In this document: one piece after another, positions 52,509-56,033 of the stretch
Layout of the letters: every line of letters begins with the position of its first letter
Numbering within the stretch: position 1 is the first letter of the stretch
Assembly: GCA_000146045.2 (NCBI GenBank)
Contig: BK006949.2
Location: forward strand, 32,001-96,000
Length of the DNA stretch: 64,000 bases
Direction of reading: 5' to 3'
From: TPA_inf: Saccharomyces
Taxonomy: Eukaryota
Made by a program: the position numbers and the translations under genes
Notes under the pieces: generated by a model
Databases searched by the model: none
The model's input: only the letters and a program-made list of their open reading frames with translations
What the model was told of the DNA's origin: nothing

Positions 52509-53297
52509 CTAGGCAGTCCCTAGGACAGTGCCGGAGTTGTCATTGTGGAGAGGCAATGGTGTTTCTGTGGACATTAACGGTTCGTAATCTTTAGTTCTGT
52601 CGATATCCTCATCTCTGTAATACTTAATTCCCCAAGGTATTAATCGAATTAAACCGTCTAAACTTTTTTCGATTTTGGTGATGATCCATCCTGGTGGAGT
52701 GATCTTGTTAAACCACGATTCCTTGTAGCCTATGGCGTAACCGACACATAAGCCGAAAAAATGACCCCAGAAACTGGAGCCAGGTATAACGACGGCAATT
52801 GCGACTAATAGTACTAGGGGTGTATATAATGTCGGAATTGAGTAGTCTGTGCGAAAGATCCTTGTTCTAGGGCGGATCTGTGATTCTTTAAAACTATAGT
52901 ATGCGAATAAGGTGAAACACCACCCACTGGCGCCTGCAACTAATGCTTCTGGATATAGCAACTTACCCAACAAACAGTACAGAATTCCGGCAAATAGAGC
53001 ACTCAGGTTCAAAAAAACACCTGTGTACACAGTCCCATGCGTTTCTTCGAAGAGATTCAAGGGTGCCCAGATGGCTAGCACATTGAACAGTAAATGAGGC
53101 AATGATAGGTGAATTAAAGGATAAAGCGATAGCCTGCTCATTTGCAGTTTGAACAATGACTCTGGCGCCAACGACAGGTCTTCCCTTAGGGCAAAAATAA
53201 AACTTAACAGGTAAATAGCGGTTAGAAATACCACAAGGCCTGTGGTCAACGCAGCTGGTGGATGACCACCGGGAAAAACGTACGACTTCCAATTCAT
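52509..53297 (-). CDS. RBD2: Rhomboid-family intramembrane serine protease homologue (262 aa)
   Basis: Track start 53315 is a GTG; the ATG is revcomp CAT at 53295-53297 (MNWKSYVFPGG...). Rhomboid GxSG motif (AGASGW) and a downstream His in a TM helix (GHFFGLCVGY). Confidence 0.85.
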   Translation of the reverse strand: MNWKSYVFPGGHPPAALTTGLVVFLTAIYLLSFIFALREDLSLAPESLFKLQMSRLSLYPLIHLSLPHLLFNVLAIWAPLNLFEETHGTVYTGVFLNLSALFAGILYCLLGKLLYPEALVAGASGWCFTLFAYYSFKESQIRPRTRIFRTDYSIPTLYTPLVLLVAIAVVIPGSSFWGHFFGLCVGYAIGYKESWFNKITPPGWIITKIEKSLDGLIRLIPWGIKYYRDEDIDRTKDYEPLMSTETPLPLHNDNSGTVLGTA

Positions 53298-53585
53298 AGC
53301 ACGACCAAATAGCACAACCTAACAACCAGAGTGAATTGCTGTTCTCAGTGCTTCCAATTAAGCCTTTCCCATCCCCCTATTCTTCTTGTATCGATGCAGT
53401 TCAAAAAAAAAAAAAAAAAGAGGCTTTAGATCTCAAAGGGCCGAAAAAAGTGAAAAATTTTCTCGAGAAATCATAAAAGCAGCCATCGCCATATATAAAC
53501 AATCTATGCATATGTATGCAGCATGGCATCGCATCTTTCTTGGCGACCCGGTAGTAGCATTTAACTTCCATTAGAACCATATAAA

Positions 53586-54950
53586 ATGCATGGGCCTACT
53601 TCAAAAGCTATTTCCCGCAATGTGAGAAGCGTGAAGAGACCAAGAAGAGCACCTAGGCCCGTGGTCTCCACGCAGGCTATGAACAAGTTGTCTAACGTAA
53701 CACTCTCTGCTGAACAAGAAAAGTTGAGAGAGCGCGTTTTGTCGTTCATGCGTTCCAACTTATCTCAGTACAAGTCTGACTGGAAACATCCGGCCATGTT
53801 TGTAATCCAAGGGGACGCAGGTACAGGCAAGTCTGTGATTCTAAACTCCTTGTTCAATGAAATTCAGAAACTATCCCAGTTCTCACCTTCTTCTGAAGAT
53901 ATCTTACATGGGACACATAATTATCTGGTAGTCAACCATCCCGAGATGTTAAAGTTATATATCCGGATTAGTGACAGTTTCAAATATATTTCTAAATCGT
54001 CACTAGAACGGCCCACTTCGTTGATCAACAATCTACAGAAGAGAAAAGTCATGGCCGATGTAGTCATTGTAGATGAAGCACATTTGTTGGCCACTTCTAA
54101 GGATGCTTTCAAAAGATTTTATGGCGAAAACCATCTCAAAGACTTAATGTCCCTTTGTAAAGTGCTTGTATTGGTTTACGATGATAAGCAAGCTTTAAGA
54201 ATGGGTTCCTATTGGGATGAAGGTTCTAATAACGGTGCCACTTTAAAGGACTTTTACAACGAGATTCCACCAAAATCCAGAGACTGGTACACTTTAAAAC
54301 AGCAGTTTAGGGTTGCTGCCCCACAAAACGTGTTGAACTGGATTGACCAAATTAGTGTCGCAGGTAAAATCCCACCAATTGAATCTGTGCTATCTAAGGG
54401 CAATGCAGATTGTGCTGACGATAAAATTAAGAATTTTGATTTCAAAATTTGGGATGATTGTGGCGCCATGTACGAGGCAATCAAGGAGAAAGACCGTCAA
54501 TACGGCCAATGTAGGATGCTATCTACTTACGATTTTCCCTATCGCTTGGACGGAAAAGACTATTACGTTGAATGTGGTGACAATTTCAAAGTTCGCTGGG
54601 ATCGCTATACTCCACGTGAAGTGACGCCTTGGAGTGAGCGTTGCGACACGATTGATGAGGTAGGTAGTGTGTATACTATCCAAGGGTTTGATCTGAATTA
54701 TGCTGGTGTAATTTTGGGCCGTTCCATTGGGTATGATGCGGCTAATGACTGCATCAAACTAAGACCAGAGCTGTATGACGATAGGGCCGGTTTCACCAAA
54801 AAGAAAAACATTCACAATGCAGAGGACGTTAAGCAAAAGATTATTATGAATAGCATTAATGTCCTCTTAACTCGTGGCGTGCGTGGTCTGTATGTTTATG
54901 CATACGATCCTGAATTAAGAGAGAGACTGCTTCGTCCATCAAAAAAATAG
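53586..54950 (+). CDS. YPL245W: Uncharacterised P-loop NTPase with Walker A GDAGTGKS and Walker B/DEAH motif VVIVDEAHLL (DUF2075-like), 454 aa
   Basis: ATG at 53586; motifs read directly from the translation; synteny between RBD2 and HUT1. Confidence 0.85.
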   Translation: MHGPTSKAISRNVRSVKRPRRAPRPVVSTQAMNKLSNVTLSAEQEKLRERVLSFMRSNLSQYKSDWKHPAMFVIQGDAGTGKSVILNSLFNEIQKLSQFSPSSEDILHGTHNYLVVNHPEMLKLYIRISDSFKYISKSSLERPTSLINNLQKRKVMADVVIVDEAHLLATSKDAFKRFYGENHLKDLMSLCKVLVLVYDDKQALRMGSYWDEGSNNGATLKDFYNEIPPKSRDWYTLKQQFRVAAPQNVLNWIDQISVAGKIPPIESVLSKGNADCADDKIKNFDFKIWDDCGAMYEAIKEKDRQYGQCRMLSTYDFPYRLDGKDYYVECGDNFKVRWDRYTPREVTPWSERCDTIDEVGSVYTIQGFDLNYAGVILGRSIGYDAANDCIKLRPELYDDRAGFTKKKNIHNAEDVKQKIIMNSINVLLTRGVRGLYVYAYDPELRERLLRPSKK

Positions 54951-55013: not shown

Positions 55014-56033
55014 CTACGCAGATTTTGCCTTCGGTATATTAGCCTTCTTCTTGTTGAGTGCTTCCCAAGTGATTCCACCAAATACTATAAACATCCCCAC
55101 CCATTGCTGGAAACGTACACTCTTACCGAAGACAATAATACTCAAAATCATCGAGACCATTTTCCTGGTGACTGTTATCATGATCAAAACTAAAGAGCCA
55201 AATTGTTCTAGAGTATAGAAAATAAAGCATTGTCCCATAGCGCCACAGAACGAATAAAGCATTAAATAGCCCCACACTTGTGGGTCCATCGTCAATACAG
55301 AAACGGCATTATCCCATTGTTTGCAGTCGATCACAATAAAATACAAAATATTCCACAATATCACGAAGAGGTTCAGTGTAAACATCAAGTGTGCACCTGT
55401 TATCAAAGTTTGTTTTCCCTTTTCTTTGGCCTTATTGGCCTTTAGTAGCTTATCTTGGGTGGCGTTGGTCAATCCATCAAGGAATAAACTAGAGAAAAGT
55501 AGTCCAAACCCTTGTAATTTGTTATCATTTCCGCTCTCATTAAAGGATCTCTTCAACTTTTTACCATCGTTGCCACCTATAGTGAAAATAGTGACACCGA
55601 GACTTACCAAGAGAGCTACAACTTTTTTTTGGCTTGCTATGGGCGTCCTATACAAAAGCAAATGCACCAACAACACGGGGATCATCTTGCATGACTTTGC
55701 TAACATGTAAGTGAGATAATCCACGTGCTTTAAAGAAGTTGTAGCCAGCGGGCCTGAACTACTCTGTGTAAATGATATCAACATCAATTGTTTCCAATGA
55801 TCTTTAATCATTTTTCTGGGCGGATATTCCACCTTCTTCCAGTTTAAGTACAGGTAGCCCATCATCATTGCCACAGAAGCTTGTATGAGGGATATTACAT
55901 TAGGGAATTGAAACTTTCCCATGGAGTTTGGCCAGGTTCTTGTAGCCAAAGGCTCCTGTACTAATGCCCACGTCAAAAAAGTAGCATATATACCAATCGC
56001 ACAGATCACCAAACTGGATGTACTTCCCGCCAT
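55014..56033 (-). CDS. HUT1: Nucleotide-sugar (UDP-galactose-type) transporter homologue, ER/Golgi multi-pass membrane protein (339 aa)
   Basis: About 10 TM segments; C-terminal KKxx-like di-lysine tail; ATG revcomp at 56031-56033. Confidence 0.88.
   Translation of the reverse strand: MAGSTSSLVICAIGIYATFLTWALVQEPLATRTWPNSMGKFQFPNVISLIQASVAMMMGYLYLNWKKVEYPPRKMIKDHWKQLMLISFTQSSSGPLATTSLKHVDYLTYMLAKSCKMIPVLLVHLLLYRTPIASQKKVVALLVSLGVTIFTIGGNDGKKLKRSFNESGNDNKLQGFGLLFSSLFLDGLTNATQDKLLKANKAKEKGKQTLITGAHLMFTLNLFVILWNILYFIVIDCKQWDNAVSVLTMDPQVWGYLMLYSFCGAMGQCFIFYTLEQFGSLVLIMITVTRKMVSMILSIIVFGKSVRFQQWVGMFIVFGGITWEALNKKKANIPKAKSA

What the first reader, a model, noticed from the sequence alone, without database searches (positions are those of the whole stretch)
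53586..54950. YPL245W: an uncharacterised Walker A + DEAH-box NTPase
Direct translation shows GDAGTGKSV (P-loop) followed about 85 residues later by VVIVDEAHLL, an architecture shared by DUF2075/helicase-like NTPases. The C-terminal half has no recognisable helicase motifs III-VI. Within this window it is the best candidate for a gene with an enzymatic activity still to be defined.
Basis: partly seen in the sequence, partly recalled or inferred. Interest (0 to 1): 0.5.

Follow-up and report, generated by a model that had tools for sequence, protein, structure and literature searches.

The report
Yeast YPL245W: minimal bacterial-type SF1 helicase
The gene is real and is a complete, compact helicase-type motor protein of an already catalogued family (DUF2075, the "Schlafen-type" helicase domain), probably inherited from bacteria; its classification is ordinary, but what it does in the cell is still unknown.

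Summary
Window 53586-54950 (+) is a 454-aa ORF with GDAGTGKSV (aa 76-84) and VVIVDEAHLL (aa 159-168). It is under strong purifying selection (omega 0.034) and matches yeast YPL245W.

The protein is a full-length member of Pfam PF09848 (ex-DUF2075, "Schlafen group 3 helicase domain"; E = 4e-119). But the C-terminal half is not motif-less. A confident AlphaFold model (pLDDT 89) has two RecA-like lobes and matches SF1 helicases (HelD, FBH1, Dda, Pif1, Upf1, RecD, SLFN11). Motifs Q, I, Ia, II, III, IV, V and VI are all present and invariant across 69 fungal and bacterial homologues. "DEAH-box" is a misnomer, because this is SF1 and not SF2 DEAH/RHA.

Most likely it is a nucleic-acid-dependent ATPase/translocase with almost no accessory domains and a basic, NLS-like tail found only in fungi. 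Its promoter carries a published Sfp1 (growth regulon) site.

Its closest relatives are solitary bacterial genes in acetic- and lactic-acid bacteria (about 46% identity). The next closest are GIY-YIG nuclease-helicase fusions. This suggests an old transfer from bacteria to yeast.

Activity is not proven: human Schlafen helicase domains keep the motifs but are inactive in vitro. Interest is modest.

The parts
53586..54950 (+). YPL245W ORF, 454 aa plus stop codon
   Evidence: PF09848 E = 4e-119; omega 0.034
53451..53462 (.). TGAAAAATTTTC, an RRPE-like Sfp1 binding site in the bidirectional RBD2-YPL245W promoter
   Evidence: Sequence read. A 3-bp mutation of this site abolishes the Sfp1 ChEC signal, and YPL245W is Sfp1-activated (bioRxiv 10.1101/2021.02.18.431798). 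The block is conserved in S. arboricola.
53604..53660 (+). Basic N-terminal tail KAISRNVRSVKRPRRAPRP. It looks like an NLS and is a fungal addition missing from the bacterial homologues.
   Evidence: 8 K/R and 0 D/E in aa 1-32. Basic extensions occur in the fungal but not the bacterial sequences. Tail omega is 0.028. A nuclear-import role is inferred.
53703..53717 (+). Q motif LSAEQ (L40 and Q44 invariant)
   Evidence: aligned to Dda LTEGQ by hhalign
53781..54359 (+). RecA-like lobe 1A (about aa 66-258); parallel strands at 70-75, 112-116, 157-163, 191-198 and 232-236
   Evidence: AlphaFold2 model, pLDDT 89.2; SF1 fold matches. Boundaries are approximate.
53811..53837 (+). Motif I / Walker A, GDAGTGKSV (G76, G79, G81, K82, S83 invariant)
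53925..53960 (+). Motif Ia region LVVNHPEMLKLY (N117, H118, E120, M121, Y125 invariant)
   Evidence: Assignment to Ia rests on position, so it is inferred.
54006..54032 (+). Clade-specific invariant block ERPTSLINN (R142, P143, T144, N148)
   Evidence: role unknown
54060..54089 (+). Motif II / Walker B, VVIVDEAHLL (D163, E164, H166 invariant)
   Evidence: compare Dda VLICDEVSM
54168..54215 (+). Motif III, VLVYDDKQALRMGSYW (D199, Q202, L204, W210 invariant)
   Evidence: compare Dda GIGDNKQIRPV
54291..54323 (+). Motif IV, TLKQQFRVAAP (L237, Q240, R242 invariant)
   Evidence: compare Dda ELTEVKRSNAP
54432..54908 (+). RecA-like lobe 2A (about aa 283-441); strands at 285-289, 309-313, 358-360, 370-377 and 431-439
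   Evidence: PF09848 profile positions 214-354 match this half alone at E = 2e-49.
54585..54641 (+). Beta-hairpin and loop insert in lobe 2A, FKVRWDRYTPREVTPWSER (F334, W338, D339, W349, E351 invariant). It is the only sizeable insert.
   Evidence: A role in nucleic-acid contact is a guess.
54660..54719 (+). Motif V, VGSVYTIQGFDLNYAGVILG (G360, S361, Y363, T364, Q366, G367, D369 invariant)
   Evidence: Dda STFHKAQGMS falls in the same columns.
54849..54902 (+). Motif VI, NSINVLLTRGVRGLYVYA (N422, V426, L427, R430, G434 invariant). R430 is the presumed arginine finger.
   Evidence: Dda YVGVTRGRYDV falls in the same columns, with TRG identical.

Best explanation
YPL245W encodes a stand-alone, minimal superfamily-1 helicase core of the PF09848 (DUF2075 / 'Schlafen group 3 helicase domain') family.

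The protein has two RecA-like lobes, at about aa 66-258 and 283-441, and ATP would bind in the cleft between them. The residues expected to do this are Gln44 (adenine), Lys82/Ser83 (phosphates and Mg), Asp163/Glu164 (catalysis), Gln202 and Arg242 (gamma-phosphate sensing) and Arg430 (arginine finger).

Hydrolysis would open and close the lobes and move the protein along single-stranded nucleic acid. Because it has almost no 1B/2B accessory domains, it is more likely a translocase, remodeller or weak helicase than a processive unwinding enzyme.

Fungi added a constrained basic tail that probably acts in nuclear import. S. cerevisiae transcribes the gene under Sfp1, that is, in proportion to growth.

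The lineage is a nuclease-less branch of bacterial GIY-YIG-nuclease/helicase proteins. It most likely entered an ancestor of budding yeasts once, from bacteria.

Shown here: the fold, the family, the motif set, selection, relatives and the promoter site. Inferred: ATPase activity, translocation, nuclear import, substrate and direction of transfer.
For: Family: PF09848 at 398.5 bits over the whole profile; the C-terminal half alone scores 2e-49.

Motifs: all catalytic positions are invariant in 69 fungal and bacterial sequences and correspond to the motifs of T4 Dda.

Selection: omega 0.034, including the tail.

Relatives with activity: Nhi, a protein with a DUF2075 helicase core, has ATP-dependent helicase activity (10.1101/776245). 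Bacterial orthologues hit the Nhi/AbiO helicase models at 1e-13 to 1e-16.

Nucleic-acid association: Ypl245w was enriched on a DNA bait containing a ribonucleotide (PMC10220248 Table 1).

Regulation: a functional Sfp1 site and Sfp1 dependence.

Ancestry: fungal monophyly has 100% bootstrap. Mean identity is 46% to the acetic/lactic-acid-bacteria clade, against 36-37% to other bacterial groups. The next relatives are GIY-YIG fusions. The fungal distribution is narrow.
Against: No biochemical data exist for any member of this stand-alone clade.

Human SLFN5, 11, 13 and 14 belong to the same Pfam family and, apart from SLFN14 (no intact Walker A), keep Walker A/B and most ATP-contacting residues. 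Even so, they show no ATPase or unwinding activity in vitro (PMC12135189). Motif conservation is therefore not proof of activity.

The lack of accessory (pin/wedge, 2B) domains argues against autonomous duplex unwinding.

The pull-down is a single large-scale experiment in which many general chromatin factors were co-enriched. DNA versus RNA as the substrate is unresolved: Sfp1 control points towards growth and RNA metabolism, while family relatives point towards DNA.

Deep nodes of the tree are weak (26-46% bootstrap, NJ only), so the direction and number of transfers are inferred from distribution and are not demonstrated.
Confidence: 0.6

Rival explanations
1. It is a catalytically silent helicase-like module. 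The protein would bind ATP and/or nucleic acid as a sensor or scaffold but would not turn over ATP or translocate, as reported for the helicase domains of human subgroup III Schlafens.
For: It is in the same Pfam family as the SLFN helicase domains and resembles SLFN11 structurally. Like them it lacks accessory domains. SLFN5/11/13/14 show no ATPase or helicase activity in vitro, although all but SLFN14 retain intact Walker A/B motifs (PMC12135189).
Against: Every catalytic residue, including Q202, R242 and R430, is invariant across fungi and bacteria that are only about 46% identical overall. That is hard to explain without catalysis. The relationship to SLFN is remote: a family profile does not reach any SLFN chain in the PDB at E <= 1. 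The closer relative Nhi is an active helicase. SLFN11 inactivity is attributed to an autoinhibited dimer that involves domains this protein lacks.
Confidence: 0.2
2. It is a DNA-directed helicase/translocase in genome maintenance, for example acting at nicks, gaps, embedded ribonucleotides or RNA-DNA hybrids in the nucleus.
For: It was enriched on the ribonucleotide-containing DNA bait, together with RFC, Top2, Apn1 and remodellers (PMC10220248). Relatives are fused to DNA nucleases (GIY-YIG, PD-(D/E)XK) and act on DNA. SLFN11 binds ssDNA in the canonical groove. The tail looks like an NLS.
Against: This rests on one proteomic screen with many non-specific co-enriched factors. No DNA-damage phenotype was found in the searchable literature. 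The promoter is of the growth/RiBi type and not a DNA-damage or cell-cycle type: no MCB element or Crt1 X-box was found in the homologous S. arboricola promoter, which carries only a single distal SCB-like CACGAAA at -398 (the S. cerevisiae sequence itself was not scanned for these motifs).
Confidence: 0.35
3. It is an RNA/RNP-directed SF1 ATPase that serves growth-coupled RNA metabolism, such as ribosome biogenesis, RNP remodelling or RNA surveillance.
For: The promoter has a functional RRPE-like Sfp1 site, and the gene is Sfp1-activated along with SRP68. It was co-downregulated with the RiBi gene UTP30 in an evolved strain (PMC7023378). Fold similarity to the Upf1/Sen1/Ighmbp2 RNA helicases is about as strong as to DNA helicases. 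The bait that enriched it differed from the control only by an RNA base.
Against: The Sfp1 element is conserved only within Saccharomyces and is absent upstream in N. glabratus and K. lactis. Sfp1 also activates non-RiBi genes, including the divergent neighbour RBD2. No pre-ribosome or RNA association was found in the literature. Characterised family members act on DNA.
Confidence: 0.25
4. It is an immune factor against selfish genetic elements (Ty retrotransposons, the 2-micron plasmid, dsRNA viruses), retaining the defence role of Nhi/AbiO-type and Schlafen proteins.
For: Defence roles are reported for PF09848 proteins (Nhi, Nhi-like, AbiO, SLFNs). The nuclease-fused relatives lie in defence-like neighbourhoods.
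Against: It has no nuclease or other effector domain: the helicase domain covers aa 70-441 of 454. The closest bacterial orthologues are solitary genes in housekeeping neighbourhoods. They are syntenic within genera and have no partner conserved across genera. In yeast the locus has been fixed since before the whole-genome duplication and evolves slowly, which is unlike arms-race genes. Phages almost lack the family.
Confidence: 0.08
5. One reading: a Walker A + DEAH P-loop NTPase whose C-terminal half is not a helicase lobe, making it a non-helicase NTPase such as an AAA+/STAND-like switch.
For: Weak N-terminal hits to generic P-loop models (AAA_22, AAA_16, NACHT, NB-ARC).
Against: Those hits cover only the P-loop region and, except AAA_22, fall below the curated cut-offs. 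The C-terminal half folds as a second RecA lobe with motifs V and VI. All top structural matches are SF1 helicases.
Confidence: 0.02

Closest known systems
Pfam PF09848 (formerly DUF2075; 'Schlafen group 3, DNA/RNA helicase domain'): stand-alone bacterial members in Acetobacteraceae, Sporolactobacillus, Liquorilactobacillus and Brenneria
   Same: Same single-domain architecture, at about 400-410 aa against 454. They are 42-48% identical over about 93% of the length. The Q to VI motifs are identical, and even the 'KLS...LSxEQ' lead-in is shared.
   Different: The yeast protein adds a basic N-terminal tail, sits in a eukaryotic chromosome with conserved synteny, and is under Sfp1 control. None of these bacterial proteins has been characterised either.
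GIY-YIG nuclease + PF09848 helicase fusions (bacterial, 540-850 aa)
   Same: The helicase part is the next-closest sequence group, at 33-43% identity over the full domain.
   Different: They carry an N-terminal GIY-YIG nuclease, and sometimes a C-terminal S24 peptidase. Examples lie in defence-like gene neighbourhoods. YPL245W has no nuclease.
Nhi (S. epidermidis SERP2475), Nhi-like and AbiO anti-phage nuclease-helicases
   Same: They have a DUF2075-type SF1 helicase core. Nhi shows ATP-dependent helicase activity. PADLOC Nhi/AbiO models match the N-lobe at 2e-7 for yeast and 1e-13 to 1e-16 for the bacterial orthologues.
   Different: Nhi has an N-terminal PD-(D/E)XK nuclease that is essential for immunity. 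Similarity is limited to part of the helicase. YPL245W lacks any effector domain and any defence context.
Human/mouse subgroup III Schlafens (SLFN5, 11, 13, 14): C-terminal helicase domain
   Different: Only about 12-14% identity, and a profile search does not reach SLFN chains. Schlafens have an N-terminal RNase core and a SWADL domain that are absent here. SLFN helicase domains are inactive in vitro.
Classical SF1 helicases (T4 Dda, RecD/RecD2, Pif1, Upf1, UvrD/Rep/FBH1, HelD)
   Same: Two RecA lobes and the full motif set Q, I, Ia, II, III, IV, V, VI in the same order. Motif strings are close to Dda: DDKQ vs GDNKQ, LLTRG vs GVTRG.
   Different: It lacks the pin/1B and the SH3-like or large 2B domains. 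The IV-to-V spacing is 124 residues against 220 in Dda. Identity is 13-20%. It cannot be assigned to SF1A or SF1B from these data.

Membership tests
Pfam PF09848 (DUF2075 / SLFN-g3_helicase) | Score above the curated gathering threshold, with full-length coverage of the profile | tested here: met
   398.5 bits against a cut-off of 24; profile positions 2-354 of 354; aa 70-441
Superfamily 1 helicases | Two tandem RecA-like domains forming a nucleotide cleft | tested here: met
Superfamily 1 helicases | Conserved motifs Q, I, Ia, II, III, IV, V, VI in canonical order | tested here: met
   Invariant columns in 69 sequences. Q and I aligned to Dda by hhalign. V and VI aligned by MAFFT. II, III and IV matched by string and order only.
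Superfamily 1 helicases | Nucleic-acid-stimulated ATPase with directional translocation or unwinding | not testable with these tools
   Needs biochemistry. The precedent is mixed: Nhi is active and the SLFNs are inactive.
SF1B (Dda/RecD/Pif1) versus SF1A (UvrD/Rep) | Subfamily-specific accessory domains (pin/1B, SH3-like 2B, or UvrD-type 1B/2B) | tested here: inconclusive
   No sizeable 1B/2B inserts in the model. Both SF1A (HelD, FBH1, Rep) and SF1B (Dda, Pif1, RecD) score similarly.
SF2 DEAH/RHA-box helicases | Helicase_C lobe plus HA2/OB C-terminal domains and the SF2 motif set | tested here: not met
   No Helicase_C, HA2 or OB_NTP_bind hit at E <= 1. DHX36/DHX37 appear only as weaker generic RecA matches, below the SF1 helicases.
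Schlafen proteins (subgroup III) | N-terminal Schlafen core (RNase/AlbA_2-type) and SWADL domain preceding the helicase | tested here: not met
   Only 69 residues precede the helicase domain, and no other Pfam domain is detected.
Nhi / Nhi-like / AbiO defence nuclease-helicases | N-terminal PD-(D/E)XK nuclease fused to the DUF2075 helicase; defence-island context | tested here: not met
   PADLOC hits are partial (28 bits, helicase N-lobe only). There is no nuclease domain. Bacterial orthologues lie in housekeeping contexts with no partner conserved across genera.
GIY-YIG + DUF2075 fusion proteins | GIY-YIG catalytic domain N-terminal to the helicase | tested here: not met
   GIY-YIG is found in relatives P0124, P0131, P0138, P0140 and L091 but not in YPL245W.
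AAA+ / STAND NTPases | AAA+ lid or STAND-specific domains; scores above curated cut-offs | tested here: not met
   Only the generic AAA_22 model passes its cut-off (30.5 vs 27). AAA, AAA_16, NACHT and NB-ARC are all below theirs. The fold is SF1, not AAA+.

The most novel reading that the evidence does not exclude
A nuclease-less derivative of a bacterial GIY-YIG nuclease-helicase (defence-type) lineage was transferred once from sugar-niche bacteria (relatives of acetic/lactic-acid bacteria) into an ancestor of budding yeasts. There it acquired a nuclear-targeting tail and growth (Sfp1) control, and it was later passed on to bark-beetle-associated Ophiostomatales. It would be a catalytically active, minimal 'Schlafen-type' helicase, giving a genetically tractable model for what this helicase module does when it works on its own.
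Probability: 0.4. Interest if true: 0.5.

Novelty: new member of a known kind. Interest (0 to 1): 0.33.

Why it matters
YPL245W is among the S. cerevisiae ORFs that remain uncharacterised. Showing that it is a complete SF1 motor, and not half of one, narrows the experiments to a few clear ones: ATPase and translocation assays, and K82A, E164Q and R430A alleles.

It is also the only yeast protein found here that carries the helicase module seen in the human Schlafens (SLFN11 is linked to DNA-damage responses and the family to antiviral restriction) and in bacterial anti-phage nuclease-helicases. Yeast could therefore show what that module does without its nuclease partner.

The probable bacterial origin, shared with bacteria that live alongside yeasts, would add a clean example of inter-domain gene transfer followed by domestication. 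None of this changes the fact that the family assignment itself is already in public databases.

Tried and rejected
- **PDB sequence searches.** Neither the single protein nor the 69-sequence profile gave a meaningful hit; STAT5, ORC1 and thymidylate kinase appeared at E > 0.04. Only fold comparison was informative.
- **NCBIfam.** Nothing above noise.
- **hhalign of the family profile against the single T4 Dda sequence.** It aligned only Q + Walker A, probability 75%.
- **MAFFT --add of Dda.** It put motifs V and VI in the invariant columns but mis-registered Ia-IV, so II, III and IV were matched by string and order.
- **Pfam scan of the C-terminal 149 aa.** I looked for UvrD_C-type models; only PF09848 matched.
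- **Conserved-neighbour search over 80 bacterial loci.** No partner gene is shared across genera. The only multi-genus cluster was an antisense ORF inside the gene itself, an artefact.
- **Bootstrapping.** The first attempt with Biopython timed out and was redone with vectorised distances. Deep nodes stayed weak.
- **AFDB50 fold search.** Not available.
- **Viral fold library.** Only generic SF1 helicases.
- **Phage collection.** Three remote hits at 23-26% identity.
- **Promoter scan.** Among the three orthologous promoters that were scanned, the RRPE-like element was found only in S. arboricola. In that script the S. cerevisiae upstream string was empty because of a record-name clash, so the S. 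cerevisiae sequence was read directly.
- **Defence-gene reading.** Considered and set aside because of the housekeeping context, fixed synteny, slow evolution and absence of an effector domain.
Full report
**Observation.** Window 53586-54950 (+) is an ATG-initiated ORF of 454 codons plus a stop.
- GDAGTGKSV lies at aa 76-84 and VVIVDEAHLL at aa 159-168. Lys82 and Asp163 are 81 residues apart.
- The ORFs on the opposite strand inside it are short (63-76 aa) and unremarkable.
- The gene is real. Against the S. arboricola orthologue (92% identical protein, 85% identical DNA), dN/dS is 0.034. In the first 31 codons there are 9 synonymous changes against 1 non-synonymous change.
- The block rhomboid(-) / this gene(+) / UAA-type transporter(-) / SRP68(+) is conserved in S. 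arboricola, Nakaseomyces glabratus and Kluyveromyces lactis.
- Orthologues carry the label YPL245W. A published A174D mutation at chrXVI:86106 (PMC5455960) falls on Ala174 of this ORF, so the window is chrXVI:32001-96000.

**Family.**
- Pfam gives one overwhelming hit: PF09848, formerly DUF2075 and now 'Schlafen group 3, DNA/RNA helicase domain'. It scores E = 4e-119 and 398.5 bits against a cut-off of 24, and covers aa 70-441 and profile positions 2-354 of 354.
- The other hits are generic P-loop models on the N-terminal lobe, nearly all below their curated thresholds.
- The C-terminal 149 residues alone still match profile positions 214-354 at 2e-49.
- NCBIfam has nothing. PADLOC gives only partial, weak matches of the N-lobe to Nhi and AbiO.
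- The family assignment is already public: UniRef names several orthologues 'Schlafen group 3-like DNA/RNA helicase domain-containing protein'.

**Fold.**
- An AlphaFold2 model built from a 69-sequence alignment is confident (mean pLDDT 89.2, pTM 0.87). It shows two alpha/beta lobes.
- Foldseek agrees: RecD 4e-10, Dda 7e-9, Dna2, nsp13, SLFN11 3e-8, Upf1, Sen1 and Pif1.
- Sequence searches of the PDB were uninformative. This clade is therefore remote in sequence from every solved helicase, including the Schlafens.

**Motifs.** They are not. In the alignment of yeast, filamentous-fungal and bacterial homologues (40% mean column identity), the invariant columns are as follows:

| Motif | Invariant residues |
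|---|---|
| Q | L40, Q44 |
| I | G76, G79, G81, K82, S83 |
| Ia region | N117, H118, E120, M121 |
| II | D163, E164, H166 |
| III | D199, Q202, L204 |
| IV | L237, Q240, R242 |
| V | G360, S361, Y363, T364, Q366, G367, D369 |
| VI | N422, V426, L427, R430, G434 |

I fetched the annotated T4 dda gene and compared the motif strings:

| Motif | Dda | YPL245W |
|---|---|---|
| Q | LTEGQ | LSAEQ |
| I | GPAGTGKT | GDAGTGKS |
| II | VLICDEVSM | VVIVDEAHL |
| III | GIGDNKQIRPV | LVYDDKQALRM |
| IV | ELTEVKRSNAP | TLKQQFRVAAP |
| V | STFHKAQGMSVDRAFIY | SVYTIQGFDLNYAGVIL |
| VI | YVGVTRGRYDVFYV | NVLLTRGVRGLYVYA |

- hhalign aligned Q and I. MAFFT placed Dda motifs V and VI in the invariant columns. 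II, III and IV are matched by string and order only.
- The roles I assign to the residues follow established descriptions of SF1 helicases and come from my own knowledge; they were not tested here. These roles are Walker A Lys, Walker B Asp/Glu, motif III Gln, and motif IV and VI Arg contacting the gamma-phosphate.
- 'DEAH' is simply the Walker B of an SF1 protein. No SF2 DEAH/RHA domains are detected.

**Minimal core.**
- Only about 33 residues separate Ia from II. The IV-to-V interval is 124 residues, against 220 in Dda.
- The model has no pin/1B domain and no large 2B domain. The only notable insert is a beta-hairpin with its following loop (aa 327-352) carrying invariant F334, W338, D339, W349 and E351.
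- The SLFN helicase domains are described in the same way (PMC12135189).

**Relatives and ancestry.**
- An exhaustive phmmer scan of 1.84 billion cluster representatives finds only 1,186 clusters at E <= 1e-3 and 94 at E <= 1e-30.
- The nearest non-fungal group is made of stand-alone proteins of about 400-410 aa. A scan of 185,579 prokaryotic species found 155 relatives. The best 80 are Acetobacter, Gluconobacter, Komagataeibacter, Novacetimonas, Sporolactobacillus, Liquorilactobacillus, Loigolactobacillus, Rummeliibacillus, Clostridium arbusti, Brenneria and Lonsdalea, at 42-47% identity to the yeast protein.
- To my knowledge these are unrelated phyla that share sugar-rich, fermenting or tree-sap habitats with yeasts.
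- The genes are solitary. They sit among housekeeping genes, are syntenic within a genus (for example 20 of 25 Acetobacter loci), and have no neighbour conserved across genera.
- The next group, at 33-43% identity, consists of 540-850-aa proteins with an N-terminal GIY-YIG nuclease. One of them also has a C-terminal S24 peptidase.
- Plasmid-borne examples lie next to defence-type genes: an AAA ATPase plus a UvrD helicase, MazG-like pyrophosphohydrolases, a DEAD helicase and DUF2357. Phages essentially lack the family.
- In a neighbour-joining tree the fungal sequences are monophyletic in 100% of 500 bootstraps, and the Saccharomycetaceae in 99%. They are closest to the acetic/lactic-acid-bacteria clade: mean identity 46%, against 37% to other stand-alone proteins and 36% to the GIY-YIG fusions. 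Deeper nodes have only 26-46% support.
- Named fungal members come from Saccharomycetaceae, Saccharomycodes, Wickerhamomyces/Cyberlindnera and the Pichia/Kuraishia/Ambrosiozyma/Candida boidinii group. Among filamentous fungi only the Ophiostomatales appear. Their best non-self hits are Ambrosiozyma (53%) and Kuraishia (51%), followed by bacteria.
- Fungal proteins differ from bacterial ones mainly by a basic N-terminal extension.
- The simplest reading is one old bacterium-to-yeast transfer of a nuclease-less helicase, with a possible secondary transfer to the Ophiostomatales. The direction is inferred from distribution and is not proven. I found no paper that reports it.

**Functional clues from the literature.**
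- The element TGAAAAATTTTC (window 53451-53462) is a demonstrated in vivo Sfp1 site in the bidirectional RBD2-YPL245W promoter. [quoted passage not shown]
- The block is conserved in S. arboricola but not upstream in N. glabratus or K. lactis.
- Ypl245w was enriched on a DNA bait carrying an RNA base, along with RFC, Top2, Apn1 and chromatin remodellers (PMC10220248).
- It was up-regulated at the protein level in certain strains early in sporulation (PMC12391433).
- Its mRNA was 2.2-fold lower in an iron-resistant evolved strain, together with PHO84, SPL2, UTP30 and YIG1 (PMC7023378).
- From my own memory of the SGD description, not verified here, a GFP fusion localises to cytoplasm and nucleus.

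**Mechanism and caveats.**
- The best-supported model is an ATP-driven SF1 translocase or weak helicase that acts on single-stranded nucleic acid, is imported into the nucleus through its basic tail, and is expressed in proportion to growth.
- The strongest caveat is that human SLFN5/11/13/14 show no ATPase or unwinding in vitro, although all but SLFN14 keep intact Walker motifs. The DUF2075 protein Nhi, by contrast, is an active helicase.
- Invariance of every catalytic residue across about 46%-identical fungal and bacterial proteins favours activity, but only biochemistry can settle it.
- DNA versus RNA as the substrate is open.
- A defence role is unlikely, given the absence of an effector domain, the housekeeping context of the bacterial orthologues, and the fixed, slowly evolving yeast locus.

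**Verdict.**
- The protein is an uncharacterised member of a known family whose classification is already public.
- The added value here is the complete SF1 motif set, the minimal architecture, the relationship to nuclease-helicase fusions, the probable bacterial origin, and the link to a published Sfp1 site.
- Interest is modest (0.33).

Noticed in passing
window 53404-53462: The RBD2-YPL245W intergenic region has an A19 tract followed by GTGAAAAATTTTCTCGAG. The TGAAAAATTTTC core is the experimentally mutated Sfp1 site of a 2021 ChEC-seq preprint. The block is conserved in S. arboricola but not in N. glabratus or K. lactis.
   Followed up: yes
L006-L085: The closest prokaryotic homologues come from phylogenetically unrelated bacteria that share sugary, fermenting or tree-sap habitats with yeasts: Acetobacteraceae, Sporolactobacillus, Liquorilactobacillus, Brenneria/Lonsdalea and Clostridium arbusti. 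This suggests niche-structured horizontal spread of this gene.
   Followed up: partly
P0079, P0074, P0081; L089: Among filamentous fungi only the Ophiostomatales (Ophiostoma, Grosmannia) carry the gene. It sits in a non-syntenic context, and the best hits are to the yeasts Ambrosiozyma and Kuraishia, which to my knowledge are, like the Ophiostomatales, bark-beetle associates. A yeast-to-mould transfer is possible.
   Followed up: partly
A1 N-termini: P0018, P0038, P0052, P0062, P0075, P0078: Several yeast orthologues are predicted with longer N-termini (e.g. MLKQISLRILRFQSIM..., MFLCSRLHRASLIHRGLRM...). These look like mitochondrial presequences upstream of an internal Met, which hints at dual nuclear/mitochondrial isoforms from alternative starts, as is known for Pif1. 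They could equally be gene-model artefacts.
   Followed up: no
P0152 (742 aa): One relative combines GIY-YIG nuclease, the PF09848 helicase and a C-terminal LexA-like S24 peptidase domain in a single protein. This is an unusual fusion that suggests damage- or RecA-triggered self-cleavage control.
   Followed up: no
L091 1817-12240 (L. plantarum plasmid NZ_CP028230.1) and L092 1-9819 (Bacillus megaplasmid NZ_CP085407.1): The GIY-YIG/PF09848 fusion genes sit in apparent defence clusters. One has two MazG-like nucleotide pyrophosphohydrolases, a DEAD/DEAH helicase and DUF2357. The other has an AAA ATPase plus a UvrD-like helicase (Gabija-like) and a second AAA ATPase pair. PADLOC does not name the fusion as a system.
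   Followed up: partly
L004/L005 9239-9760: In Brenneria the stand-alone helicase gene is followed 15 bp downstream by a 173-aa peptide-deformylase paralogue. The pair lies between a LacI-family regulator gene upstream and an AlaE-family gene that is followed by mraZ downstream. The pairing is not seen in other genera.
   Followed up: no
L007 5989-6885 (-) and 57 other bacterial loci: A long antisense ORF overlapping the helicase gene recurs in 58 loci of 9 genera. This is most likely a frame artefact of conserved coding sequence and not a gene.
   Followed up: no
window 52509-53315 (-) and 55014-56033 (-): The flanking ORFs correspond to the rhomboid protease RBD2 and the UAA-family transporter HUT1. 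In the orthologous loci the same positions hold Pfam Rhomboid and UAA proteins of 262 and 339 aa. The listed 268-aa ORF starts at an upstream GTG, and the likely true start is the ATG giving 262 aa.
   Followed up: partly
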